A DNA stretch of 64,000 bases from Heterodontus francisci. Taxonomy: Eukaryota. The stretch covers positions 74,154,146 through 74,218,145 of the forward strand of contig NC_090394.1 of the NCBI RefSeq assembly GCF_036365525.1. Reading direction: 5' to 3'. The stretch's first letter is position 1. Every line of letters begins with the position of its first letter. A program made the position numbers and the translations under genes. This document shows positions 1,531-63,402 of this stretch, in pieces. Below the pieces are notes generated by a model. It was not told the origin of the DNA, made no database searches, and saw only the letters and a program-made list of their open reading frames with translations.

Positions 1531-21089
<19,559 letters not shown>

Positions 21090-26800: not shown

Positions 26801-29800
26801 TGAAACTTAGACCTGACCTGCCTGGAGACTGGAGAAAAAGACTTCTCTCTGTAAAGGAGACTTGCATCTCTTGAAAAGAAATCCTGCATTTGAAAAGTGG
26901 CATATTCCTATTGCCTCCTGTCTCTGAAGGATTCCTGCATCCAGAGTGGTTCCTGTTGCCTCCTGTGTTTTGGGAAATCCTGGAACCTGAACAAAGCTTC
27001 TATTGCTGTGTTGCTGCTGTGAGTCCTGAGCAGACCAGTTGCGACACCCTTGCTGAAAGACCAATGTGAAGCCTGCTACAGACAAATTGCCTTAACGCCT
27101 ACCCATCACAGAGTGTTCATCAAACATGCGTGGAGAGACTTTGAGTGGCATCTGACTATTTGACTCTGGGACACCTTATTGTGCCCAAAACATCCTAACA
27201 GAATGTGATAAACTCAATCATTTCATTTTTTCCTTTTTATTCCTAAGAAACAGCTGTAAACAAAAAATCCTTTTTCCTCTGTTAACTGGTTTTTGAATGT
27301 ATGTATGATTGCATGAGGGCGAGGAAGAATAAGGAGTGTTAAAAAATATTTTCATATATAGATTTATCGCATTATTCTTTAAGACTTCTTATTTCTTTTC
27401 TAATAAATAGTTAATATTGTTATTGTTTAAAGAAACCTGGTTTGGTGTGCTTTATTCTGAGGGACAAATAGAATGTCTAAATTGGCTATTCTTCGGTAAG
27501 GAGAAACTTTCTCGATATGCTGTGACCTGTGGAGTAGTGGGACTGAATTAACAGTGCATTACTCCCGTCTTGATCGTAACAACAGCATATTTATTATATA
27601 GTGTGGCCTTAAGTTGAAACAACATTAACGGCATTTTAAAATTACCACTGAAATTGCATTAAGTGAAACCTAGGAACGCTGTAGTGGATCTGTGCATCAA
27701 ATGCTCAGCCAGAGCAGTTATGGGTGAAACAGTTCGCTTCTTTCAAAAGGAGCTGGTTAAGTAACTGGTTGTGGGGATCAGTACAGTCGGAGATAATCAA
27801 TTATCTAAAATCAATGGTTCCTGTGCTGTTGAGGCTGGGGAAGGGGGCAAATGGGTTGCATGTGGAAGCAGTCGGTTAGGGTTGAATAGTGAAAATATGA
27901 GGGTGGATGACTGGAGCTTTACTGGATTAATTGTAAAGATCAAGGAGTATTTATAATAAACTTTATCTCAGCAAAGTTCACGCGAGATGACACATGGTCT
28001 ACAGAAGTAGCAAACTTGAAGGAACAAATAACCTTTTCTCATTCTATGCTTTTTCATGATTATATATTTAAAAACACAACTTATTTCTGATGAAATTACT
28101 GTGCATAAATTTTTACCAGCCAGCGTAAGGTTTTGGTTAGCTCCTAAATTTGCTCCCAATTCTTCAGCTGTTATCAATAGCTGGGAAAACTTTGTAAATG
28201 CACTGAGCCCTTAGCTTTGATTACTGCAATAGAATAATTCATAGTTATATCTTGTAGAGCATTACAGACCATGCATTACATAGTCTTTTCAATCAGGTAA
28301 ATAAGTGGTAATTTATAATGTATAAACCTATTCAAAAGCAAATATAAATACATCATACAAACTAACATATGTAGCATAGTGGTGATATTGCTGGACTAAT
28401 GATCCAGAGACATGAGTTCAAATCCCACCATGGCAGCTGGAGAATTTAAATTTAAACCACCAAATTGTCATAAAAAAACAATCTGATGTCCTTTAGGGAA
28501 GGAAATCTGCTGTCCATACCTGGTCTGACATACATGTGATTCCAGACCCACAGCAATGTGGTTGACTCTTACCTTGAAGTGACCTAGCAAGCCATTCAGT
28601 TGTAATCAAGGCAGCGGCTCACCACCACCTTCTCAAGGGCAAAAGGGATGGGCAATAAATGTTGGACTTGACAGCGACGCTCACATTCTGTGAATGAATA
28701 AAAAATGCTGACAATTACCTAATCTCTTTTCTGAGTTCAGCTTCTGCTGCTTGATTGTCTCCGGGACTAATCTGGGCTCGAAATCGCCTGCATCTCTGCG
28801 CCTCTTTCTGTTGTGCTTGCTGCTTATTGACCATCTTCATCCTTTCAGCAAGAAGGCTCATACAGAAAGGGAACTTCACAATCTTTTTATTCATTTCTAC
28901 CAGTACATCGATTTCTGAAGTCTGAAACGGTCCGAGACCTAAAGACAAGCCATCATCCAAACACAAGCTGCCAACCTTCACGCGTTTTGCGCCCTGGGTG
29001 ACAGGATCGTGCAAGCAAGAACTTGTTGAACCAGCCTTCTCTGTTAGCACAGCAATGCTAGGTACCGAAATGTCACAGCCAGTCTTTTCAGTTTTCAGTT
29101 CTATATCTCCTTTCTCAGCTTCTGAAAAATTCAGTCGTACATTGGGCGAGCTAACTGCACTGTCAGAGCCATCAGTAGATTTGGACCAAGTATTGTCCTC
29201 TGGTGTGTTGCAGCCAAGTACTGAGCATGGTGTTGTGCTGCCTTTTCCAGAATCTGTATCACTTTCAGAGTTCCTGGAATCCTGCTCCATTTGTTTGGGA
29301 TTTCCAGATGCTGGACAATCAGGCTGAGGGCTCCTCAGTTTACAACTGGTCAAAAATGTATGTAGTTTTCTTTGCACTGGTAAGTCCTGTTGTTTGTTAG
29401 ACTTGGGCCCACATAATGATGATTGGCGTAGGGAGTATGCCTCACGTAACCTGGAAATGCTTATACTCTTCTCTTTCTCTGAATACGATTGCACAACAGG
29501 TGATTCCTGCTTGGTTGAAACAGAGGACTCTGGACCGACTGTCTGTGGAACTTTTTCAGAGATTCCTAAAACTGGGAACAAAGCTTAACATTTAGAATCA
29601 CAAAATGACCTGTCCAATATTGCACTATATGCTACTTGGACCTTTATCGTTCAGTCAGTAGAATGGCACACTTATCTGGTCAATTTCCAACATATTGGTA
29701 ACAAAAGTTTTTTTAAAACATTTTCCTGGGTTATGGGTAAAAGTCAACGTAATCTGGGACTACAGTCATGCGAAAGGCAAAGTAGGTTGGCCGGGGTCGG

Positions 29801-32800: not shown

Positions 32801-35800
32801 CCCAAGGAATCACGGGCACAATCTATAATCAGGGACTGGACACATTTAGTGACAACAGTATTGTGAACAGTGGTTGTTAACCATAACCTCTAAATTGCAC
32901 AGGGCCAACAGCAGGATGCAAGACCATTTATAGCCATTGCGTGTCGACAGCGTTATCAATAGTCACTCCGATTCAATAACTCACAAATTTGTACTGTTAC
33001 TGCTGCTTACCTTTGCTGGGTCACATGGTCGCTGATTGATAAAGAAAAACTGTCGATCGGTTGAACTCCTGCCAACACCGTGATCGCTGCGAGACACAAA
33101 CCCTGTGATTCTTCAAGGTACCACAGAAAGGAAAGTTACTGTTATTGCACACAAAATATTATTCGTTAGTATGAGCTGCCAGGTCAGCAGAATAGCTGTG
33201 ACTCTCTCTTGCCTCTCTGCTGCGGTTTACTATGAAACTACTCCAGGATCAGGGAGATACTCCCCATCGCTGATGTTTAGTTGCCTAGTAGCAATGCAGA
33301 TCTAACCAAAGGATCGCATTGACAATTAAGTGTACCCATATACAGAATGGAAGGGTGTGTACTTTGAACAAGCAATACCTTGCTAATCAACGATGTGAGG
33401 GCATCATTCCTATCCTCATGCAAGGCTGACACATGCTCACTTCTACGAGAGGTCACTGGATAGCAATCAAGAGGATGCCTCCATCTCTCTATTCCCCTTT
33501 TCACCTAGTAGCACTGGAGTTAATTGCCGGTCTTCCTGAGACTCGTACCTGGGATCTTCCCAGTCTGTGTGACCTACTCACTAACTTCACTTAGTCATGG
33601 GGGTTGGTAGAGCTGCAGGCATCTGACTTATCTGAACTGCAGGATAGAAGGATATGCAGAAAGGATGAGATGGAGTACAGTGGGAGGAGACTGGTGTGGA
33701 GCATAAACACTGGCACAGGCCAGCTGGATCGAAGGACCTATTTCTGTGCTGTAAAGTTTGTGTGTACGTCACCTTACACAAAATTTTCCTTCCTCTTCAG
33801 CTATATGAATATAGTCCCATTTTTATATACAAAGTGGGGAATTTAGAGTCAGAGTTATACAGCACAGAAACAGCCCATCGTGTCTGTGCCAGCCATCAAG
33901 CACCAAACTATTCGAATCCCATTTTCCAGCACTTGGCCTGTAGCCTTGTATGCTATGGCATTTCAAGTGCTCATCTAAATACTTCTTAAAAGTTGCGAGG
34001 GTTCCTGCCTCTACCACCTCTTCAGGTAGTGTGTTCCAGATTCCAACCACCCTCTGAGTGAAAAAATATTTCCTCAAATCCCCTCTAAACTTCCCTGCCC
34101 CCTTACCTTAAATCTATGCCCCCTAGTTATTTATCCCTCCGCTAAGGGAAAAAGTTTCTTCCTATCTAAGCTATCAATGCCCCTCATAATTTTGTATACC
34201 TCAATCATGTCCCCCCTCAGCCTTCAAGATAGTCATAGAGTTTTACAGCACAGAAACAGGCCCTTCGGCCCAACGCGCCTGCACTGACCATTAAGCACCC
34301 TTCCAAACCTAATCCCACTTCCCCATAGTTGGCCTGTAGCCTTGTATGTTATGGCATTTCAAGTGCATTTCTGAATACTTCTTAAATGTCGTGAGTGCTC
34401 CTGTCTCTACCATCTCTTCAGGCAGTGTGTTCCAGATTCCAACCACCCTCTGGGTGAAAGTTTTTTCTTAACTCCCCTCTAAACCTCCTGCCCCTTACCT
34501 TAAAACTATGCACCTTAGTTATTGACCTCTCCACTATGGGAAAAAGTTTCTTCCTATCTATCCTATCAATGCCCCTCATAATTTTGTATACCTCAATCAG
34601 GTCCCCCCTCAGCCTTCTCCACTCCAAGGAAAATAACCCCAACCTATCCAGTCTCTCTTCATAACTGAAATGCTCCAGCCCAGGCAACATCCTGGTGAAT
34701 CTCCTCTGCACCCTCTCCAGTGCAATCACATTCTTCCTATAGTGTGGTGACCAGAACTGTACATAGTACTCCAGCTGTGGCCTAACGAGCATTTTATACA
34801 GCTCCATCATAACCTCCCTGATCTTATATTCTATGCCTCGGCTAATAAAGGCAAGTATCCCATATGCCTTCCTAACCACCTTATCTACCTGTGCTGCTGC
34901 CTTCAGTGATTTATGGACAAGCACCCCAAGGTCCCTCTGTACTCCCTATGGTCCTACCATCCATTGCATATCCCCTTACCTTGTTAGACCTTCCAAAGTA
35001 CATCACCTCACACTTCTCAGGATTAAACTCCATTTGCCACAACTCTGCCCATCTTACCAGCCTATCTATATTGTCCTGTAATCTAAGGCCTTCCTCCTCA
35101 CTATTTAAGACACCACTGCGAACTCATCTCCTATATTCACGTCTAAATCATTAATGTACACTATAAACAGTAAGGGTCCCAGCACCGACCCCTGCGGTAC
35201 CCCACTGGTCACAGGCCTCCATTCGCAAAAACAACCCTTTACCATCACCCTCTGCCTCCTGCCACTAAGCCAATTTTGAATCCAATTTGCCAAATTACCC
35301 TGGATCCCATGGGCTCTTACTTTGTTAACCAATCTCCCCTGCGGAACCTTTTCAAAAGCCTTACTGAAATCCATGTAGACGACATCAACTACTTTACCCT
35401 CATCTACACCTCTAATCACCTCCTCAAAAAATTCAATCAAACTGTTAGACACGATCTCCCCTTGACAAAGCCATGCTGACTATCCCTGATCAATCCCTGC
35501 CTCTCCAAGTGGAGATTAATCCTGTCTCTTAGAAGTTGTTCCAATAATTTCCCTACTACTGACGCTAGACTCACAGGTCTATAATTACCTGGTTTATCCC
35601 TGCTACCCTTCTTGAATAATGGTTTCACAGATGAAAAACCTCACCTGTGTCCTCCGGCTCGACACACAGATTGCCTCTTGGATCCCTAATGGGCCCCACC
35701 TCTTCCCTGGTTATCCTCTTGCCCCTTACATTCTTACATAACGCCTTGGAATTTTCCTTTATCTTGTCTGTCAGTGATTTTTCATGCCCCCTCTTCGCTC

Positions 35801-38800: not shown

Positions 38801-41800
38801 AGGATGGCACCTTCAACAGTGCAGCACTCCTTCAGTACTGCACTGGGAGTGTCAGCCTAGATTATGGGATCTGGTCTCTGGAATGGGACTTGAAACTACA
38901 ACCTTCTGACTCAGACAAGAAGGATACCCACTGAGCCACGAATAACTCTTGTCAGACTGCTTCAGGCAGCATAAGAGTCATATAGTGTGGATTAGTGTTA
39001 TCCTGTATAGGCCAGGCCGGGTAGGGGCTGCATGTTTATCTCCGAGGCACATTACTGAACCTTCTGTGTTAATTTTATTCTAGTGATAGGCATCAAATTG
39101 CCAAGTTAATTGAAATCAATTTCACAACATTTAATTTTACAGTGTACACTATCTAAATGATACTCTTCAGCAATTTGTCAAGGCTTCTTTGGCAGAACCT
39201 CCCAAACCCATGACTTCCACAACCTAGAAGGACAAGGGCAGCAGGTGCATGGGAACACCACCATCTCCAAGTCATTTGTCATCTCGACTTGGAACTATAT
39301 CACCGTTCCTTCATTGTCGCTGGGACAAAATCCTGAAACTCCCTCCCCAACAGCATTGTATGAAAATCCACACCACATAGCCTGCAGTGGTTCAAGGCAG
39401 CAGCTCATCACCCCCTTCTCAAGGGCAACTAGGGGTGGGCAATAAATGCTAACCTTACCAGTGATGCCCACATCCCGAGAATGAATGAAAAAAATCTTGT
39501 TCAATTTCTGTCTACTACTAAAACAAATGTTAAAATCAGATATATTTTGTAAGACCGTAGCCCCTCGAGCCTGTTCCATTATTCAATATCATGGCTGATC
39601 TACAGCCTAACTCCATATATTAACTATTGAACTTCACTCACCTGTAGAGCTTTTCATGAATGTCATCAGGATTAATTCCATAATCTTCACAAATAGCCTC
39701 ACTAGGGTGCAATTGAACAAAAGGGACAAGATTCTGTAACTGGAAAATACAAAAAACATATGATACTACATAGAATCATATAGAACAGAAAGAGGTTATT
39801 TGTCTCTTCATGCCTCTTTGAAAGAGTATCCAATTAGTCCCACTTCCCTGTCGTTTTCCCATAGCTCTACAAAATTTTTCCGCTTCAATTATTTTATTCA
39901 ATTCCCTTTTGAAAGTGGTTACTGAATCTGCTTCCACTGCCCTTTTAGGTAGTGCATTCCAAATCACAGCAACTCGTATCTCTATTTCAATGCTGGTTGT
40001 ACAACACTGACTGGAAAGCTCTCAATTTGGCAAGAAGCTCTGGCTTAAGTTTAACCTGCATATACAATGGCGACATTAGGCTTTCACAAGAGTAGGTTAG
40101 TACCACAGAAATACAAATAACATTTATACAACACCTGATCACACTGTCAACTTTACTTTTAAGGATGGAATGGTTACTTCACAAGCAAACATGGGAGCTA
40201 TTCTAGCACTAGCACTATCCCCAATGCAACTATGAAATGATTGGCCAGTTACTCTGTTCCTTAGTGGTGTTGGTTGAGGGAACAGTGTTAGCCAATACAC
40301 TGGGAAAACTCCCTACTCTTTGAATAGTGCCTTGGGATCCTTAAATGTCCAACCGAGCAAGCACATGAAACTTTCGTTTAAATGTCTCATCTGAGGGCAG
40401 GAAGAAACACTCACTCGGCACAGCATTGGGTGTCAGCCTAGACTATCAACTCAAGCCCTGGTGTCAGATTCTTAATAAGGAAAATATAAATTAATGCTAC
40501 ACGACAGACAATTTCTTCGGTGTGGGTAACATGTATGAAAGCATTCGGTGTTTAATGAATTTTTGTACTACTCAATGCTGTAGAACACAGAACTTCCCAG
40601 TGTCAGCATTAAGCACTCCCATCAAGGCCCCTACTACTGTGCTCCAACCTCCACACCCCTTTGTTACTTGTTTGTGGCATCTCTAATTCTCAAACCATTA
40701 AAGCACTGACACAGAATGCATATGAAACGATGATACTGCCAGCCCTGCCTGCCCCATGGGAAACTCCTTGCTTTCCCTCACTCAGTCGATCACATTGTAC
40801 AAATACATCAACGACACAGAAGCTAACAACTTGGCCTGCTTTCCATTGGGAGCTAAAAAGAGTCTGCCTGCATGGGGTGAATGGGAGAGTGTGAAAGAAG
40901 CTAAAAGAGTGACCATCTCAGCTTGCAAATATGCTGAGTATGTTAACCTGGCTGTACTGAGAGGACTCTCCATACTAATAGACCCAGGACAAGGAGTCTT
41001 CCCAGTGCAACAAACAGACTGTGCCTGCCTCCTGCAAGTAGCTGTAACAGTGGAATATATCAGGTATCCGAAATACCTCAAGATTTCCCTGACAGAGGAG
41101 GCAGCATCAGGATCATTTTGGACATGACTGAAGTGGAACACAGGGCGGAGGTTACTAGTGTAGCTGAAGGACTTCTGTCCCAAGCAGATGCACTATAAAT
41201 ATTTTACCTGCTTTGATCCAAATACTGCGCTGATGTTTTCCTTCAATGCGGTGCATCCACTGGTGCAAAAAACAGGGTTTCTTTTTCCTTGTCCAACCTG
41301 ATTTGTGCAATTTATCCGTATACCTGTAGAAATGATGCAATAGGCCTGCAGCACCTGCGCCATTTTACCGTATTCCTTTTTTAAATAAAACAAATTAAAA
41401 GCTTCAGATTTATAATATTGCAGCTTGAACATTAAAATTTTCTAAACACAGGATGAATATATTGCCATCAGACTTGTTGGAGAACCAAGCACCCAAACTT
41501 ATACTATGAAAATGCATTTAAGGTGAAGCTAGATAAACACACGAGGGAGAAAGGAATAGAAGGGTTATTCTGATAAAGTTAGATGAAGTAAGATGGGTGG
41601 ATGCTTGCGTGGGCCGTAAACACTGGCACAGATCCACTGGGCTGAATGGTTTGTTTCTATGCTGTACATTCTACGTAAAAAAATCTGCAAATGCTTGAAA
41701 CTGAAATAAAAGCAAAAAATGCAGGAGATGTACTGCAGGTCTATCAGTATTTGTAAATGAAAAGATGGGTTCTTTCATGGAGTTCACACCCAAAATTTTC

Positions 41801-44800: not shown

Positions 44801-47800
44801 TTTAAATTGGGCAAATACTGAAAACCATTTGCCATTAGTATTACCATCAATTACACTGGCACCCTTTATATTGTGTTAAGCATGCTAGCTACTTGGGCAG
44901 AACCAGGTGTTCAGTGAGCAGCCTGCAACTCAGATGCAATTACCATGTATACTTTATCACCATGTGATGTGCTGTTCGTTAATATTGAGGGCATTACAAG
45001 AAATCGTGAACACCAGCAATTGACAAGGGGCAGCTTTCAAGCCTCAGGTTGATTTTTTTAAAATCAGGTGCTAATAAGAGGATTTCAGATGCTCAAGTGA
45101 TGTCTGAAAGCCATGTTCACTTTCAGTACTTTACAAAAAAAGCCTCAAGACATCAGCTATCGGCACTCTACAATTCCCTTCCTAAAATTCTCTGCCTTAT
45201 CACATCTCCTATCACTTTCAACAGCCTCCACAAAACCTACCTTTGGCTGCACCTACAATCGCAGAATTTTTACAGCGCAGGAGGCGGCTATTTGGTCCAT
45301 CGTGTTGGCAACAGCTCTCCAAATGAGCAATTCACCTAATGCCATTCCCCCACTTTCTCCCCACAACCCTGTACATTCTTCCCTCCCAGATAACAGTCCA
45401 ATTCTCCTTTGAATGCCCCAACTGAATCTGCCTCCACACATACAAGTGTGACGATGAAAAATTACAGACTAAAACTGAAGAGTTATAAAAATTGCCTTTG
45501 TCTTTTAAATAAAGTGAACAACGTGCTCCAAAATAGCCACCGAAGGTAAAAAAAAAACTTGGCCTTTGCATATTCAAACTGTCTGACAGGGATAAAGGAA
45601 TACCTTCAAAGCCAAGAGGTAACAATTGCACCCATCCTACACCCATCCAGAAACATTCCCAAATTGAATGGGTTCTTCTGAAACAAAGGTATAAAGTAGC
45701 CGTATCCTAGGCCATTGTCAGTCACTACAGGAAGAAAATACCTGTCTCCTATCAGAGGGAAGATGTAACAATTTTTTTTTTTTACCTTAAAAGGCAGCCC
45801 TAGACTGAGAGAGACATCCAGAAAGAAGCATCAAAGAAGCTTTTCCAACTAAAATGGCTGGGAGAATTTCAGCAAGCCAGAAGGGACGTGCCCTGCTGCA
45901 GAATTCTGCATCTACACTTATACAGCAGTGAATTGGAAATGATCCACTGTCTTCAACTGAACCTTCAAGCAAGAGAGAAACCTACAAACACCTCAGGCCT
46001 GGAACCAACAAAAACTTGACTTCCAAGAGAATTCAACAGGTTTACTGTGACTCCAGAAACCTACCCCCACTTACCATCGCTTTCCCCTTTTCCTGCCTAC
46101 TTGTCTATTCTTGTGTGTGTGCATGTGCACACGCGTGCGAATGAGTGAATGGATGCGGTTGTGACAATTTCAGGTTAAGGTGTATTGATCAATAAATTAT
46201 TGATTTTCCGTTTAAAACCTACAATAAAAGCTGTTGCTGTCTGTTTATTTGAAAAATAAAATACAAAGGGATTAAACCCTAACAACAAAAAATGCTTGCT
46301 GTGGTCAGGTGGGAGTGGAACAGTGGGAACCACCCAAACCCCTCACCACGTGACCGTAACACTTCCCATATACCTCCTCCCAAGCTTGTTTCTCTTTATA
46401 AAGTGCCTCGGGAAATTTCACTGCTTTAAAGTTGCTAAGTGCAAGCTGTTGTTGTCATTTGCTACCAGCTGTTAATTGACGTATAATTAATGTCCCAGGA
46501 GGGTCTCTTCAAAACAGCTGTCTGAAATACCTGAAAGTACAACAACTTCCTTTATCATAGAATGAACAGCACAGAAGGCCAGTCAGCCCATCATGCCCAC
46601 GCTAGCTCTTTGAAAGAGTTCCTTCCTGCTCAGTATATAAATACAAACTGTTGAAAAGTAATGTAGATTTGGATTAGTCATATTTTGTCCTCACCAATGT
46701 TAGTAGCTCCAGCATCTAGACTGTTTTCCACCAACTCTTTTACAGCAGTGCTGAGGCTTAACACAACTTGCCCTGAACAAATCTGGTGCACTGACTGTCG
46801 GTCAATTGGCTTGATCACTCTTGCAGGCGCTGAGCTAAATCAACAGAAAATAGAACACTATTGAAACAAGACCACACTAAGCACATAAAAGATAATTAGG
46901 TCAGTCATATTAACAAACCCACAAAAAAACTCACATACACACTATGCCAATCATTGTGGTTTAATACTGGGTAATTTGATTTTTTTTTTTACAGGCTGCT
47001 TGGAAATTTTAAAAAATGCACACTACTTTTTTTTATTAACCTGACAGCTTACTTCTGTCTTCTATTACTGGTCTCATACCAAATAAATTGTCACTGGAAC
47101 TTTACACTATGAGAGAGTTTTCAATACTGCAATGCAAGAGAGGGTTAACGTTTAAAAACGAATTCAAAGGCCTCCCTTATCCATGTTGATCTCGCCATCC
47201 CACTTCTGATTTGACAGTCTAGTTTTCAGCAAAATATAGAAGTCACAGGATGTAAGAAAGGAAAGTTTGCATTTATAGAACACCTTTCACGTCCTCAAGA
47301 CATCCCAAAGCACTTCACAGCCAACACAAACCTTTTGATGGATCACTGACATTGCTGTCAGCAAATACAGCAGTGAGATCACTGACTAGTAAAACTGTTC
47401 TTAATCATGTTGGAAGAGTGATAATTGTTGGCCAGGACACTGAGAATTCCCCTACTCTTTTTCCAAATACCCACAGAGGATCTTTGACATCTACCTCAGA
47501 GGGAAGATAAGATCTGGGTTTAACATTTCTTCGAAAAGCTGGTAGCCTTGACAATGCAGCACTCCCTTCAGTACTAGATTATGTATTCAGGTCCCTACAA
47601 CAACAACCTGCATTTATATAGTACCTTTAACATAGAAAAACATCCTAAGGCACTTGAAAACAGCATAATCAGACAAAAATTGAGACCGAGCCAAAGAAAG
47701 ATATAGGTGCACAAAATCTTGGTCAAAGAGGTAGAGTTTAAGGAAGATTTTAATAGAAGAGAGGTGGAGAGGTTTAGGGAGGGAATTCTAGAGCTTAGGG

Positions 47801-49053
47801 CCACAACAGCTGAAGGCACCAATGGCGGAGTGATGAAAATTGGGATGCATTATGCCATAAATGGAGGAGCGCAGAGATCTTGAATAGTTGTAGGGCTGGA
47901 GATGGTTCCAGAAATAGGGAGGAGGGCAAGGCCACAGAGGGATGTGAAAACAAGAATGCAAATTTTAAAATCAAGACATTGCCAGACTGACAGCCAGTGT
48001 AGGTCAGCGAGCACAGAGATGCTGGGTGAACTGAACTTGATGCGAGTTAGGACACGGGTAGCAGAGTTTTGGATGAGCTCAAATTTATGGTGGAAAAAGA
48101 CTTGCATTTAAAAAGCACTTTTGACAACCACAAAAGGTCCCAAAGTGCTTTACAGCCAATGAAGTACTTTTGAAGTCATAGAATTATACAGCACAGAAAC
48201 AGGCCCTTCATGTCTGTCCCGGCCATCAAGCACCTAATTATTCTAATCTCATTTTCCAGCACTTGGCCTGTAACCTTGTATGCTATGGCGTTTCAAGTGC
48301 ACATCTAAATACTTCTTAAATGTTGTGAGGGTTCCTGCCTCTACCACCCCTTCAGGTCATGTGTTCCAGATTCCAACCACCCTCTGGGTGAAATTTTTTT
48401 TCCTCAAATCCCCCTGCCCTATATCTTAAATCTACAGGCCCTGGTTATTGACCATTCTGCTAAGGGAAAAAGTTTCTTCCTATCTAACCTATCAATGTCC
48501 CTCATAATTTTGTATACCTCAATCATGTCCCCCCTCAGCCTTCTCTACTCTAAGGAAAACAACCCTAGCCTATCCAGTCTCTCTTCATAGCTGAAATGTT
48601 CCAGCCCAGGCAACATCCTGGTGAATCTCCTCTGCACCCTCTCCAGTGCAATCACATCCAAACTATGTGTGATGCCGTGATGCCCAGAACTGTACACAGT
48701 ACCCCAGCTGTAAAGTAGGAAGTGCAGCAGCCAGTTTGTGCACAGCAAGCTCCCATAAAGAGAAATATGATCCTGATTGAGGGATATTGACTAAGGAGAC
48801 ACCAGAGAAAAACCCCCCTGTTCCTGTTTGAAATAGTCTCAATGGGATTGTTTACATCCACCTGAGAGGACAGACCACGTCTCTTTAACCTCTCATCTGA
48901 AAGACGGCATCGCCGACAATGCAGCGCTCCCTCAGTACTGCATTGGAGTGCCAGGGGAGTCTGAAGGGAAATGAAGTGACTCCAAGTCCAAGCCACGCGA
49001 GCACAACCCTGGACAGACGTGCTTCCATTCTCTGGGACTCACCAGACTTCCAT
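23684..49053 (-). CDS. PMS2: Mismatch repair endonuclease PMS2 (MutL-alpha subunit), complete, 15 coding exons, 852 aa (854 with the alternative exon 11 acceptor)
   Basis: Exons 49053-49043, 46834-46695, 44596-44510, 43403-43301, 42244-42061, 41375-41208, 39739-39642, 33110-33011, 32434-32350, 32114-31962, 29565(or 29571)-28719, 26047-25880, 25231-25131, 24903-24734, 23827-23684; sum 2559 nt, open throughout. GHKL ATPase motifs ([24 protein letters not shown]), endonuclease [29 protein letters not shown]. Confidence 0.97.
24734..24903 (-). CDS. PMS2: PMS2 exon 14
   Basis: [33 protein letters not shown]...FASRACRKS; cag|...|gtaagt. Confidence 0.96.
25131..25231 (-). CDS. PMS2: PMS2 exon 13
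   Basis: [33 protein letters not shown]; cag|...|gttggt. Confidence 0.93.
25880..26047 (-). CDS. PMS2: PMS2 exon 12
   Basis: [41 protein letters not shown]...QKLIA; cag|...|gtaagg. Confidence 0.96.
26446..27581 (+). mobile_element. Solo-LTR-like element
   Basis: TG...CGTAACA ends; internal AATAAA followed by the aaagaaacctgg block shared with the other LTR-like copies; no clear TSD. Confidence 0.55.
28376..28705 (+). mobile_element. tRNA-derived SINE whose 3' tail is shared with the LINE at 50252-50893
   Basis: A-box-like tagtggtgat, B-box gagttcaaatccc; tail gggcaataaatg..gg.c...cagcgacg..cacat....tgaatgaat; related copies near 21715-21935, 29815-30010 and 38960-39130. Confidence 0.7.
28719..29565 (-). 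CDS. PMS2: PMS2 exon 11 (Ser-rich linker)
   Basis: Long open exon with [10 protein letters not shown] and [23 protein letters not shown]; donor AG|gtaatt; in-frame alternative acceptor at 29571. Confidence 0.9.
30152..30960 (+). mobile_element. Solo LTR
   Basis: TGTCATGCAG...GGTCGTAACA; flanks aattc/atttc (4/5 TSD); colinear with 37324-38230. Confidence 0.75.
31962..32114 (-). CDS. PMS2: PMS2 exon 10
   Basis: [29 protein letters not shown]; tag|...|gtacag. Confidence 0.93.
32350..32434 (-). CDS. PMS2: PMS2 exon 9
   Basis: [28 protein letters not shown]; tag|...|gtaagt. Confidence 0.95.
32716..32835. repeat. 39-bp minisatellite, 3 copies
   Basis: AACTGACCACAAGGAACCACGGGCACAGACCAGATCAGG starting at 32716, 32755 and 32794. 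Confidence 0.9.
33011..33110 (-). CDS. PMS2: PMS2 exon 8
   Basis: [33 protein letters not shown]; aag|...|gtaagc. Confidence 0.95.
33843..36938 (-). mobile_element. Degenerate CR1 LINE spanning the ORF1 end to the 3' tail (34232-36938), plus a tandem second 3' fragment (33843-34226)
   Basis: APE ([27 protein letters not shown]) and RT remnants with frameshifts and an internal deletion; two consecutive 3' UTRs. Confidence 0.92.
37324..38230 (+). mobile_element. Solo LTR (same family as 30152-30960)
   Basis: TGTCATGCAGACCCCCACCTGCCAAGAATGAG...GGTTGTAAC; flanks atgcc/atgac (4/5); AATAAA near 38037. Confidence 0.75.
38487..38938 (-). mobile_element. Deu-domain SINE, near full length
   Basis: tRNA-like head gtggctcagtgggta...ggttgtagtttcaagtccc, Deu core, L2-like tail. 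Confidence 0.8.
39170..39495 (+). mobile_element. 3' fragment of the CR1/L2-group LINE family seen at 50252-50893
   Basis: cttggaactatatcaccgttccttcattgtcgctggg..aaaatcc..aactccctcccc...gggcaataaatgct. Confidence 0.75.
39642..39739 (-). CDS. PMS2: PMS2 exon 7
   Basis: [32 protein letters not shown]; cag|...|gtgagt. Confidence 0.92.
41208..41375 (-). CDS. PMS2: PMS2 exon 6
   Basis: [26 protein letters not shown]...VFGSKQ; aag|...|gtaaaa. Confidence 0.93.
42061..42244 (-). CDS. PMS2: PMS2 exon 5
   Basis: DLSVVTCHK...[26 protein letters not shown]; cag|...|gtgagt. Confidence 0.95.
43301..43403 (-). CDS. PMS2: PMS2 exon 4
   Basis: [33 protein letters not shown]; aag|...|gtattg. Confidence 0.95.
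44510..44596 (-). CDS. PMS2: PMS2 exon 3
   Basis: [28 protein letters not shown]; cag|...|gtaagt. Confidence 0.95.
45447..46361 (+). mobile_element. Solo-LTR-like element
   Basis: TGTGACG...CGTAACA inverted ends (6/7); AATAAA near 46191; TG-rich tract like the other copies; no clear TSD. Confidence 0.55.
46695..46834 (-). CDS. PMS2: PMS2 exon 2
   Basis: [46 protein letters not shown]; tag|...|gtgagg. Confidence 0.95.
47595..48095 (-). mobile_element. L2-clade LINE 3' fragment
   Basis: [28 protein letters not shown]; tail gtactatataaatgcaggttgttgttg. Confidence 0.82.
48175..48710 (-). mobile_element. CR1 LINE 3' fragment nested in a Deu-SINE (about 48100-48952)
   Basis: [37 protein letters not shown]; SINE sequence resumes on both sides. 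Confidence 0.82.
49043..49053 (-). CDS. PMS2: PMS2 coding exon 1
   Basis: ATG GAA GTC TG|GTGAGT; phase 2 matches exon 2. Confidence 0.75.
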
Positions 49054-57211: not shown

Positions 57212-58925
57212 GCTGAACAAGAGTAGGCCATTCAGCCCATCAAACTGCCCCACCATTCAATACGATCATGGCTGATCATCCACTTCAATGCCTTTTATCC
57301 CCGCATTATCCCCATATCCCTTTGTCATTGGTATTTAGAAATCTGTCGATCTCTGCTTTAAACATACTCAATGACTGAGCTTCCACAGCCCTCTGGGTTA
57401 CAGAATTCCAAAGATTTACAACCCTCTGAGTTAAGAAATTAGCCTTAATTGCTTGCTGCACCTGCATGTTAGCTTTCAGTGACTTATTGATGAGGACACC
57501 CTGGTCCCTTTGTACATCTTACCATTTAAGAAATACTCTGCACATCTATTCCTCCTATCTTACATTTTTCCACATTATATTCCATCTGCCACGTTCTTGC
57601 CCACTCATTAAGTCTGTCCAAATCCCCTTGAAGCTGCTTTGCATCTTCCTCGCAACACACATTCCCACCGTTCTGATGAAAGGTCACTGACCTGAAACAT
57701 TAACTCTGCTTCTCTCTCCACAGATGCTGCCAGATCTGCTGAGTATTTCCAGTATTTCTTGTTTTTATTACACATTCCCACCTAGATTTGTGTCATCTGT
57801 GAACTTGGAAATATTACATTTGGTCCCCACATCCAAGTCATTGATATATTGCGGACAGCAGGGGCCCAAGCACTAATCCCTGCGGTACCCCACTAGTCAC
57901 AGCCTACCAACATGAGAATTACCCATTTATTCCTACTCTGCCTGTTAACCAATCCTTAATCCATGCCAGTATATTACCTCCTATCCCATGTGCTTTAATT
58001 TTGCGAACCAACCTCCAGTGGGGAACATCAAAAGCCTTCTGAAAATCCAAGTATGCCACGCCCACTGACTCAGCTTTATAAATTCTGTAACATTCTCAAA
58101 AAACTCCCAACAGGATCGTCAAACATGATTTCGCATTCATAAATCCATGTTGGCTATACCCAATCAGATCATTATTACCCAAGTGTCTATTTATCACATC
58201 CTTTAGAATAGATTCTAGCATTTTCCCAACGACTGATGTAAGGTTAATAGGTTTGTAATTCCCTGTTTTCTTTTTCTCTCACTCCCTTCTTAAATAGTGG
58301 GGTGACATTTGCTGCCTTCCAATCTGCAGGAACTGCTCCAGAATTTTGGAAGATGATCAATGCATCCACTATCTCCATAGCTACCTCTTTCAACATCCTG
58401 GGATAGCAGGTCCTGGAGACTTATCAACCATCAGCCCATTAATTCCTCCAATATAAAACTTGCTAACACTAATTTCCTTCAATTCCTCATTCTCCCTAGT
58501 CCCTTGGATCTCTAATTCTGGGAGATTTCTTGTATCTCCCTCAGTGAAGACAGACACAAAGTAATCATTTAGCTTCTCTGCCATTTTTGTATTCCCATTT
58601 TAAATTCTCCTGACTCAGCCTGTAATGGACCCACATTTGCCGTAGCCAACGTTTCCTTTTTCCATACCTATAGAAGCTTTTGCAGTCCGTTTTTATATTT
58701 TTTGCTAGCTTACTATTCTATTCTCCCTTTCTTTATCAGTTTCTTCGTCCTGCTTTGCTGTATTCTAAAATCCTCCCAATCCTCAAGTTTACTACTATTT
58801 CTGGCAACTTTATAGACCTTTTCTTTTAATCTTATACAATCCTTAACTTCCTTTGTTATCCACGGTTGACTGCATTTACTTTTGGGGTTTTTGTGCCTTG
58901 AAGGAATGTATAGTTGCTGTAAACT
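57212..58925 (-). mobile_element. Degenerate CR1 LINE between AIMP2 and EIF2AK1
   Basis: MAEKLNDYFVSVFT, DKSPGP, YLDFQKAFD, SGVPQGLVLGP remnants with deletions. Confidence 0.82.
57670..57769 (+). mobile_element. 100-bp Penelope-like solo repeat carrying a minimal type I hammerhead ribozyme fold
   Basis: 13-bp perfect TSD ACACATTCCCACC (57657-57669, 57770-57782); GTT-CTGATGA-A-AGGTC-ACT-GACCT-GAAA-CATT-AAC. Confidence 0.75.
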
Positions 58926-62171: not shown

Positions 62172-62820
62172 TAGATCACTAAAGGCAACAGCACGGGTAG
62201 ATAAGGTGATTAGGAAGGCATATGGGATAGTTGCCTTTATTAGCCGAGGCGTAGAATATAAGAGCAGGGAGGTTATGATGGAGCTATATAAAACGCTAGT
62301 TAGGCCACAGCTGGAGTACTGTCTTTTCAGTTCTGGTCGCCACACTCTAGGAAGGATGTGATTGCACTGGAGAGGGTGCAGAGGAGATTCACCAGGATGT
62401 TGCCTGGGCTGGAGCATTTCAGCTATGAAGAGAGACTGGATCGGCTAGGGTTGTTTTCCTTACAGCAGAGAAGGCCGAGGGGGGACCTGACTGAGGTATA
62501 CAATAGATAGGGGCATAGATAGGAAGCAACTTTTTCCCTTAGAGGAGGTGTCAATAACCAGGGGGCATAGATTTAAGAGGGGATTTGAGGAAAAGAAAAT
62601 TTCACCCAGAGTGTGGTTGGAATCTGGAGCACACTGCCTGAAAGGGTGGTAGAAGCAGGAACCCTCGCAACATTTAAGAAGCATTTAGATGAACATTTGA
62701 AACGCCATAGCATACAAGGCTACGGGCCAAGTGCTAGAAAATGGGATTAGAATAGACAGGTGCTTGATGGCTGGCACAGACTCCGAAGGGCCTGTTTCTG
62801 TGCTGTATAACTCTATGACT
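62172..62820 (+). mobile_element. CR1 LINE 3' fragment
   Basis: Same subfamily as 9804-10464 and 34232-34900 (gagcatttcagctatgaagagagactgga...). Confidence 0.85.
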
Positions 62821-62924
62821 AACTGCAGAAGGTACATCAGGAAAACAGAGCCATCATTGCAATGGAAGTATATAAGTTTAACAAATACAAGGGGAAAATA
62901 GTGCAATATAGAACTCTTCAGATA

Positions 62925-63402
62925 TTTGTGTTGAGCTCAAAAAACTCTGTTGCCTGTGTCCTAACTTGCACAAAGACCGGTTCACCCACCACCCTTGTGT
63001 TCGCTGATCTAGACTGGCTCCCAGTCCAACAATATCCAGATTTTAAAATTTTCATCCTTGTTTTCAAATCTCTCCATATCTCTGTAATCTCCTCCAGCCC
63101 TACAACCCTCCGAGGTCCCTCCACTCCTCCAATTCAGGCCTCTTGAGCATCCCTGATTACCGTCACTCCAGCATTGGTGGCTGTGCCTTCAGTTGCCTGG
63201 GCCCTAAACTTGAATTCCCTCCCTAAACCTCTCTGCCTCTCTCCCCTCCTTTAAAACGCTCATTAAAACCTATCTCTTTGACTAAGCTTTTGGTCATCTG
63301 TCCTTACGCATGTCTCATTGTCAAATTTTGTTTTGATAAAACTCCTGTGAAGCACCTTGGGATTTCTTACTACGTTCAGGTGCTATATCAATACAAGTTG
63401 TT
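62925..63402 (+). mobile_element. L2-clade LINE 3' fragment
   Basis: KNSVACVLTCTK..SPTTLVFADLDWLPVQQ..DFKI; homologous to 47595-48095. Confidence 0.8.

What the first reader, a model, noticed from the sequence alone, without database searches (positions are those of the whole stretch)
57657..57782. 100-nt mobile unit that is essentially a minimal hammerhead ribozyme, with a perfect 13-bp target duplication
Seen: exactly 100 bp (57670-57769) inserted into a CR1 relic between identical ACACATTCCCACC repeats. It begins at stem I: GTT / CTGATGA / A / AGGTC-ACT-GACCT (stem II) / GAAA / CATT / AAC (pairs with GTT). The sister copy near 19070 has GAAACGTT, i.e. a palindromic AACGUU stem III; here G>A looks like CpG decay. 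Known: Penelope-like elements and retrozymes carry minimal type I hammerheads with palindromic stem III that cleave as dimers. Inference: a very small non-autonomous ribozyme retroelement (solo pLTR or retrozyme-like) family, with at least 3 clear copies in 64 kb and so probably very abundant in this genome.
Basis: partly seen in the sequence, partly recalled or inferred. Interest (0 to 1): 0.7.

Follow-up and report, generated by a model that had tools for sequence, protein, structure and literature searches.

The report
Penelope retroelement stump carrying minimal hammerhead
This 100-base insert is the cut-short tail end of a very abundant 3.3-kb Penelope-type jumping gene in what is likely a shark genome, carrying that element's tiny hammerhead ribozyme motif (likely dead in this copy); the kind is known, but almost half of the sampled copies stop where the motif begins, which likely marks where the element's RNA starts.

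Summary
In detail: 100 bp between true 13-bp target duplications in a LINE relic, with a minimal type I hammerhead motif whose palindromic stem III is broken by CpG decay. It is not a separate mini-element. It is the 3' end (hammerhead plus 68 nt) of an autonomous 3,296-bp Penelope-like element with an intact RT + GIY-YIG frame elsewhere in the genome and a Neptune/Nematis-type linker. One 20-mer has 119,016 exact matches. Short and long copies intermix on a tree, so stumps arise repeatedly from full-size elements. The motif covaries in distant relatives (117 of 126 pairs, shuffles at most 87). Of 100 copies, 43 begin at -7..+9 of the motif; about 0.5% of young-type copies break exactly at the predicted cleavage site. 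Copies end at +100 or +135, the known tail. Best reading: reverse transcription starts inside uncleaved RNA and likely runs off an RNA 5' end at stem I. Against the simplest form of this, 0 of 10 long ORF-bearing copies start there. The youngest subfamily carries U4C. Cleavage and RNA ends could not be tested. This scan noted the same kind on other DNA (622 notes, at least 31 genomes). Known kind; modest interest.

The parts
57657..57669 (+). Left target-site duplication (13 bp, host LINE sequence)
   Evidence: single in paralogous LINE copies
57670..57769 (+). Insert: 3'-terminal 100 nt (+1..+100) of a Penelope-like element, older subfamily; three likely post-insertion changes (+30 G>A, +66 C>T, +84 C>T)
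   Evidence: 88% identical to the end of the intact 3,296-bp units; 94-98% to 29 genomic copies
57670..57672 (+). Hammerhead stem I, 5' strand; also the 5'-breakpoint hot spot of the family
   Evidence: breakpoints
57673..57680 (+). Core CUGAUGA plus the bulged A typical of PLE minimal hammerheads (CCGAAGA in the youngest subfamily)
   Evidence: PMC4209133
57681..57693 (+). Stem II, 5 bp with 3-nt loop; closing pair A-U here, G-C in young copies, G-U in between
   Evidence: pair probability 0.95-1.0
57694..57701 (+). GAAA and stem III remnant CATT (family CGTT, palindrome AACGUU); predicted cleavage between 57701 and 57702; G>A at 57699 removes the dimer helix
   Evidence: self-duplex -5.5 kcal/mol in intact copies, +2.6 here
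57702..57704 (+). Hammerhead stem I, 3' strand
57705..57769 (+). Rest of the pLTR up to the first of two family 3' ends (+100); in longer copies +52..+126 folds as a long hairpin and a 35-nt tail follows to +135
57770..57782 (+). Right target-site duplication
57440..58700 (-). Host: decayed LINE RT region (CR1-like, label recalled), interrupted just after the RT active-site motif; right limit is the end of the stretch tested
10899..11000 (-). Sister stump, about +5..+106
18999..19098 (-). Sister copy of another, older subfamily with intact GAAACGTT
19906..20036 (.). Degraded two-armed copy: + arm from +1 at 19953, short inverted arm 19906-19936
41680..41754 (-). Degraded copy, +51..+127, no hammerhead

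Best explanation
The insert is the last 100 bases of an autonomous 3.3-kb Penelope-like retroelement with a Neptune/Nematis-type linker, likely written into a staggered cut by the element's own enzyme starting inside an uncleaved RNA and likely stopping at the start of the hammerhead because that RNA begins there. Shown: identity with the element's end, intact parent frame, TSD, two 3' ends, 5' hot spot, covarying motif. Inferred from the Anolis PLE work (PMC11167929): GIY-YIG nicking and internal initiation at +100 or +135. Inferred here (about 55%): a transcript class starts at 0/+1 (an initiator-like TCAGTT lies there; consensus recalled), so priming at the 5'-proximal tail site yields 100- or 135-nt run-off products, while longer copies come from read-through or multimeric RNA primed at the downstream tail. 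The hammerhead would cut only as a dimer or with protein help, is not what defines the unit, and is likely dead in this copy.
For: Copies run 5' into GIY-YIG and RT coding sequence. A tandem array of 3,296-bp units, 0-1 differences between units, has a 904-codon open frame (RVT_1 E 2e-5, GIY-YIG E 2e-3, both under Pfam's cut-offs), DKG, YIDD, CX4CxxC linker and CxxC before YIG, ends at about +100 and has its own TSD. Nearest named protein: Chiloscyllium punctatum, 71%. 3' ends: 50 of 100 near +100, 50 near +135. Two-armed insertions: 14 of 16 classifiable events have one arm of each kind (p 0.002; 19 events, 3 unclassified). 5' ends: 43 of 100 in -7..+9, 27 in -2..+3, 2 in +32..+35. Genome-wide, 43% of +1..+18 matches keep the 7 upstream bases against 79% keeping the 7 downstream ones (38,986 and 72,192 of 90,896). 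About 18% have a foreign base just before +1 (12,189 x 4/3) against about 0.5% just before +33 (190 x 4/3 of 55,297; different subfamily mix). G precedes +1 in 49 of 100 against 37% expected (p 0.009), as copying a cap would give. Covariation: 22 cores found without asking for pairing in 80 related loci; stem I 62 of 66, stem II 82 of 88 paired.
Against: No RNA end, cap, splice or cleavage data: all runs were contigs. If +1 were the only start, full-length copies should begin there, but 0 of 10 copies that run at least 1.4 kb into the ORF side and reach +9 stop at -7..+9 (two are units of one array; p 0.002), and 2 of 16 overall; a second RNA class has to be assumed. The peak is at +1/+2, not at the initiator A at 0. 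The same spot reads as a 3' splice site. The G excess is modest and only some cases are clearly untemplated. One young haplotype is 8 short to 1 long. The breakpoint sample comes from the first 6.4 Mb of one contig and favours less diverged copies. Only 23 of 63 one-armed copies show an exact TSD of 8 bp or more. Clade not tested by phylogeny with named references.
Confidence: 0.8

Rival explanations
1. Same parent element, but the +1 hot spot is not a transcription start: it comes from RNA processing or sequence-guided joining (a 3' splice site at 0/+1 as in D. virilis, where the intron ends at helix I; annealing through the quasi-palindrome at +2..+10; or self-priming on an antisense template as proposed for rotifer PLEs). 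This differs from the best explanation in one step only.
For: Long ORF-bearing copies never stop at +1. AG preceded by a pyrimidine run sits at 0/+1; PMC4209133 reports intron end = helix I start. 13 of 43 short arms are in two-armed insertions. PMC3846280 favours self-priming for head-to-head junctions.
Against: None of 100 listed junctions carries the exon predicted from the nearest upstream donor-like site, and there is no shared upstream sequence (by eye); TSDs abut +1 with 0-8 extra bases; 30 of 43 short arms join host DNA directly; no splice-type joint among the 15 of 21 joints shown.
Confidence: 0.3
2. A separate non-autonomous 100/135-nt family (SINE-like solo pLTR) that is transcribed on its own and mobilised in trans by the PLE enzyme.
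For: Sharp, recurrent ends; tens of thousands of such units; one haplotype 8 short to 1 long; pLTR sequences can act in trans (PMC3846280); non-autonomous PLE derivatives exist (bioRxiv 10.64898/2026.07.22.740005, PMC8557442).
Against: No clustering of short copies on the tree or by nearest neighbour (p about 0.3 and 0.2), subfamily mix not different (chi-square p 0.24), shared identical haplotypes. The test has only 88 columns and 86 rows, so small short-only lineages are not excluded.
Confidence: 0.08
3. A retrozyme: tandem units are cut out by the hammerhead, circularised and re-inserted.
For: Minimal hammerhead with palindromic stem III; retrozymes are reported from one chondrichthyan and are related to pLTRs (bioRxiv paper).
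Against: Unit ends do not lie at the cleavage site (2 of 100, about 0.5% exact); the only tandem seen has a 3,296-bp period; ends are fixed, not permuted.
Confidence: 0.03
4. The hammerhead resemblance is chance.
For: No Rfam hit; loose pattern near background; stem I pair probability only 0.07-0.24 in monomer folds.
Against: Same core with different, still paired stems beside related ORFs, including both flanks of one element 3,066 bp apart; 11 sense hits against 0-2 in shuffles.
Confidence: 0.01

Closest known systems
5'-truncated / solo-pLTR insertions of EN+ Penelope-like elements, Neptune or Nematis type (PMC8557442, PMC3846280; passages read)
   Same: RT + C-terminal GIY-YIG, CX2-5CxxC linker, partial tandems, inverted 5' arm, 30-40 bp tail on one end, variable TSD, heavy 5' truncation
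   Different: A sharp truncation hot spot at the first base of the hammerhead that holds nearly half of sampled copies was not found in the passages read; copy number above 100,000
Minimal hammerheads of metazoan PLEs (Cervera and De la Pena 2014, PMC4209133; first half of text read)
   Same: Core, bulged base before stem II, no loop 3 with palindromic 15.2-16.2, mostly single dispersed motifs 'probably related to truncated PLEs'
   Different: Stem I 3-4 bp; this subfamily closes stem II with A-U; the youngest subfamily has U4C and U7A; sharks were not seen among the examples in the parts read
PAc, Poseidon of Anolis carolinensis (Frangieh 2024, PMC11167929; first half read)
   Same: Two internal RT start sites that define the tail; uncleaved RNA as template; no ends at the cleavage site
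   Different: Other clade; there the ORF starts inside the hammerhead and the tail lies in the ORF, here the first ATG is about 170 nt after +1 and the tail is untranslated
Non-LTR retrozymes (PMC7229834 passages; bioRxiv 10.64898/2026.07.22.740005 parts 1 and 3 of 5)
   Same: Small, non-coding, type I hammerhead, PLE-related, large TSD
   Different: Not in short tandem arrays, ends not set by cleavage, no own lineage seen

Membership tests
EN+ Penelope-like element (parent) | Single ORF, RT followed by C-terminal GIY-YIG | tested here: met
   904-codon frame; RVT_1 and GIY-YIG hits, both below Pfam cut-off
EN+ Penelope-like element (parent) | DKG motif; two cysteines between GIY and YIG (CCHH) | tested here: met
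   DKG at aa 328, CxxC at 830-833 before YIG, candidate histidines downstream; definitions from PMC8557442
EN+ Penelope-like element (parent) | Partial tandems forming pLTRs; inverted 5' arm | tested here: met
EN+ Penelope-like element (parent) | 30-40 bp tail, usually on one end | tested here: met
   ends at +100 and +135; 14 of 16 two-armed events mixed
EN+ Penelope-like element (parent) | RT groups with PLE references in a phylogeny | not tested
   no named reference set was available; homologues are mostly unnamed
Neptune/Nematis clades | CX2-5CxxC linker between RT and EN (absent in Penelope/Poseidon) | tested here: met
   CX4CxxC at aa 790; does not separate Neptune from Nematis
Minimal type I hammerhead of PLEs | Core CUGANGA ... 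GAAA ... UH with stems I and II | tested here: met
Minimal type I hammerhead of PLEs | Covariation in stems I and II | tested here: met
   117 of 126 pairs in 21 distinct motifs, partner shuffles mean 70, max 87 of 5,000; related rows not down-weighted
Minimal type I hammerhead of PLEs | G10.1-C11.1 closing pair | tested here: not met
   A-U in this copy and subfamily; G-C in young copies and 18 of 21 motifs
Minimal type I hammerhead of PLEs | Palindromic 15.2-16.2 for dimer stem III | tested here: not met
   broken in this copy (duplex +2.6 kcal/mol); intact in 44 of 100 subfamily copies
Minimal type I hammerhead of PLEs | Self-cleavage as dimer or with protein | not testable with these tools
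   needs assay; no raw reads
Non-LTR retrozyme | Short tandem repeats with a hammerhead in each unit | tested here: not met
   none in flanks of 100 sampled copies or 400 kb random DNA; no genome-wide tandem scan, so rare arrays are possible
Non-LTR retrozyme | Unit delimited by cleavage sites; circular RNA | tested here: not met
   ends not at +32/33; circles themselves not testable
Non-autonomous (SINE-like) PLE derivative | Own lineage distinct from autonomous copies | tested here: not met
   low resolution

The most novel reading that the evidence does not exclude
This PLE makes two kinds of RNA: a capped message starting at the first base of the hammerhead, on which the enzyme primes only 100-135 nt from the cap and so sheds tens of thousands of ribozyme stumps, and rarer read-through or multimeric RNA that alone yields new full-length elements. 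The genome would then be an in vivo record that uncleaved RNA is the template, and the youngest active subfamily, with a U4C core that recurs in distant relatives, shows that efficient cleavage is dispensable or is restored by the element's protein.
Probability: 0.4. Interest if true: 0.5.

Novelty: new member of a known kind. Interest (0 to 1): 0.25.

Why it matters
The copy itself is debris. The family is useful as a very large fossil record of a poorly understood transposition cycle: it maps both RT start sites, shows the one-tail rule of two-armed insertions, points to an RNA 5' end at the ribozyme, and shows almost no products ending at the cleavage site. A near-identical tandem array with an open frame gives a Neptune-type system to set beside the Poseidon one already reconstituted. 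The family covers about 3% of 400 kb of random DNA, so it also matters for repeat annotation.

Tried and rejected
Rfam scan: no hammerhead model hit. Single-strand folds of the unit are no better than shuffles (z -0.5 to -1.3); expected for a dimer-type motif and not used. PDB sequence search of the parent protein: nothing. Pfam on eight fragments of decayed copies: one weak GIY-YIG hit only. The 30 best BLAST loci were biased toward the query's own flank letters, so they were not used for breakpoint statistics. RNA evidence: 22 runs listed, those laid all contigs, RNA status mostly guessed; depth is highest over +1..+135 but cannot show expression, ends or splicing. A shared short first exon was looked for and not seen. 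Simple 'one start site at +1' model: tested and failed on long copies. A weak cluster of 5' ends at +40..+50 (6 of 30, 5 of 100 at +42..+52) may be trimmed cleavage products or CT-tract microhomology; unresolved. Literature: searches for hammerhead+Penelope+shark, Penelope+Neptune+shark, Penelope+shark genome+repeat landscape and Penelope-like+twin priming gave no paper that by title or abstract describes this family; Repbase and Dfam could not be searched, so it may be catalogued. The supplementary figure of PMC11167929 on insertion ends is a picture and gave no text; bioRxiv supplements were not seen and may list this family. Look-up of earlier findings by sequence found nothing.

Full report
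Numbering: +1 is the first base of the insert (window 57670).

Observation. The insert is 100 bp between identical 13-mers. Removing it and one repeat restores a site that aligns across the junction to other copies of a LINE RT region in 40 alignments, some from overlapping loci; three of four flank pieces hit RVT_1 weakly on the minus strand. So the repeat is a true TSD. The first 35 nt parse as a minimal type I hammerhead. Rfam does not detect it and the loose core pattern is near background. Four further copies or remnants lie in the window. The genome is 6.0 Gb; the nearest named protein to the parent is from a bamboo shark at 71%, so the host is likely a shark (inference).

The parent. 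Many genomic copies continue upstream into GIY-YIG and RT coding sequence. A search with the ORF's front part found three hits 3,296 bp apart. That array has units differing by 0-1 bases, a 904-codon open frame, a 5'-truncated first unit, an end near +100 and its own TSD. The protein has RVT_1 and GIY-YIG hits below Pfam cut-offs, DKG, YIDD, a CX4CxxC linker and CxxC before YIG, which fits Neptune or Nematis as defined in PMC8557442 (passages). The window insert is 88% identical to the end of these units and 94-98% to 29 other copies. Exact matches: 119,016 for one 20-mer, 134,726 for a 21-mer. The family covers 3.2% of 400 kb drawn from 40 places, with 34 arms.

Ends. I took the first 100 matches of a pattern at +52..+72 (first 6.4 Mb of contig 1; all 100 fetched). 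3' ends fall in two groups, 50 near +100 and 50 near +135: the 35-nt tail. Among 19 two-armed events, 16 could be classified and 14 have one arm of each kind (p 0.002). This matches the one-sided tail in PMC8557442 and PMC3846280 (passages) and the two internal RT start sites shown for the Anolis element (PMC11167929, parts 1-2 of 4). 5' ends: 43 at -7..+9, 43 beyond -20, 2 between, 12 after +9, of which 2 at +32..+35. Genome-wide counts agree: of 90,896 matches to +1..+18, 38,986 keep 7 upstream bases and 72,192 keep 7 downstream bases. A foreign base precedes +1 in about 18% (scaled by 4/3; about 8 of the 100 listed are point mutants) but precedes +33, the predicted cleavage product, in about 0.5% of 55,297 young-type matches. 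Exact TSDs of 8-16 bp were found in 23 of 63 one-armed copies.

Is the stump its own family? All four 3' subfamily signatures occur in both classes (chi-square p 0.24). A tree of +10..+97 for 43 short and 43 long copies needs 20 label changes against 21.6 shuffled; nearest-neighbour agreement is 0.52 against 0.49 (p 0.2); three haplotypes are shared; one of them is 8 short to 1 long. Resolution is low, but the result favours repeated shedding from autonomous sources.

The ribozyme motif. In 80 metagenome loci with related ORFs (best 80 of 367), a search for the core alone found 22 sites; stem I is paired in 62 of 66 and stem II in 82 of 88 cells, with four Watson-Crick types in stem I; 117 of 126 against at most 87 in 5,000 partner shuffles (relatedness not corrected). 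One locus has the motif on both sides of its ORF, 3,066 bp apart. Within the genome the stem II closing pair moves between A-U, G-U and G-C. In the window's subfamily CUGAUGA is ancestral (CTGA 92, CCGA 3, CCAA 3, CTAA 2 of 100) and stem III shows symmetric CpG decay (counted by eye). The intact array and most young copies read CCGAAGA, and U4C recurs in 4 of the 22 related sites; PMC3088659 (passages) says U4C lowers activity in vitro yet supports a viroid. This copy cannot form the dimer helix (+2.6 against -5.5 kcal/mol), so it is likely inactive. PMC4209133 (parts 1-2 of 4) describes these motifs, their dispersal as single copies, and low activity even as dimers.

Mechanism. Shown: the unit is the pLTR end of an autonomous PLE. 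Inferred from the Anolis work: nicking, internal priming at +100, uncleaved template. Inferred here: the stop at +1 is an RNA end. For: sharp peak, an initiator-like TCAGTT at -2..+3 (consensus recalled; D. virilis Penelope has an internal promoter, PMC2377424 passages), short extra bases at junctions, G excess (49 of 100 against 37%, p 0.009). Against: among 30 copies that run past the tail into the ORF side (first 30 of 2,123), 16 reach +9 and only 2 stop at -7..+9; of the 10 that run at least 1.4 kb none does; every long copy that included +1 also continued upstream. So a single start site does not explain everything; two RNA classes, or a processing or joining cause, are needed. No raw reads were available to decide.

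Comparison and verdict. It works like, and is, a 5'-truncated PLE insertion; it fails the tests for a retrozyme and for a separate non-autonomous lineage. Four literature searches found no description of this shark family, but repeat databases were not searchable. Earlier notes of this scan, consulted after the analysis, report the same kind and similar readings in other genomes; they are not independent support. Other papers seen: PMC6155905 and PMC7229834 (passages), bioRxiv 10.64898/2026.07.22.740005 (parts 1 and 3 of 5 and passages). Score 0.25: real, well explained, known kind, with a testable detail.

Noticed in passing
window 11092-11259 (-): Coding exon with MORN repeats (Pfam E 5e-10) followed by a donor site; resembles RSPH10B (recalled). 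The sister copy at 10899-11000 lies about 90 bp into the next intron, in sense.
   Followed up: partly
window 28369-28431 (+): tRNA-like match under threshold (27 bits); probably the head of a tRNA-derived SINE.
   Followed up: no
G000:C1:104.034-104.046 Mb (L055, L056): Partial-tandem array of 3,296-bp PLE units, 0-1 differences, 904-codon open frame; very young; another tandem pair at C1:23.22 Mb (L260, L261).
   Followed up: yes
element +54, +104, +168 and 0/+1 (L056): Four pyrimidine-run-plus-AG sites that read as 3' splice sites, the last just before the first ATG; PLEs often have a 5' UTR intron. No splice joint seen in contigs.
   Followed up: partly
L253-L282: 14 of 30 copies that pass the tail end at +200..+590 inside the ORF front; possibly further RT start sites, or interruptions; not examined.
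   Followed up: no
L284, L295, L349, L352: Related PLEs from marine metagenomes also carry the U4C core (CCGACGA); L284, L295, L298 and L300 have inverted hammerhead arms at the 5' end.
   Followed up: partly
L253-L282 and one search set: Minor cluster of 5' ends at +40..+52, 8-19 nt after the predicted cleavage site, within a CT run; unexplained.
   Followed up: partly
window, many places (e.g. 4993-6585, 13453-14890, 33851-35622, 47602-48711, 62172-63402): Several dispersed LINE-like and shorter repeat families from self-comparison; not annotated.
   Followed up: no
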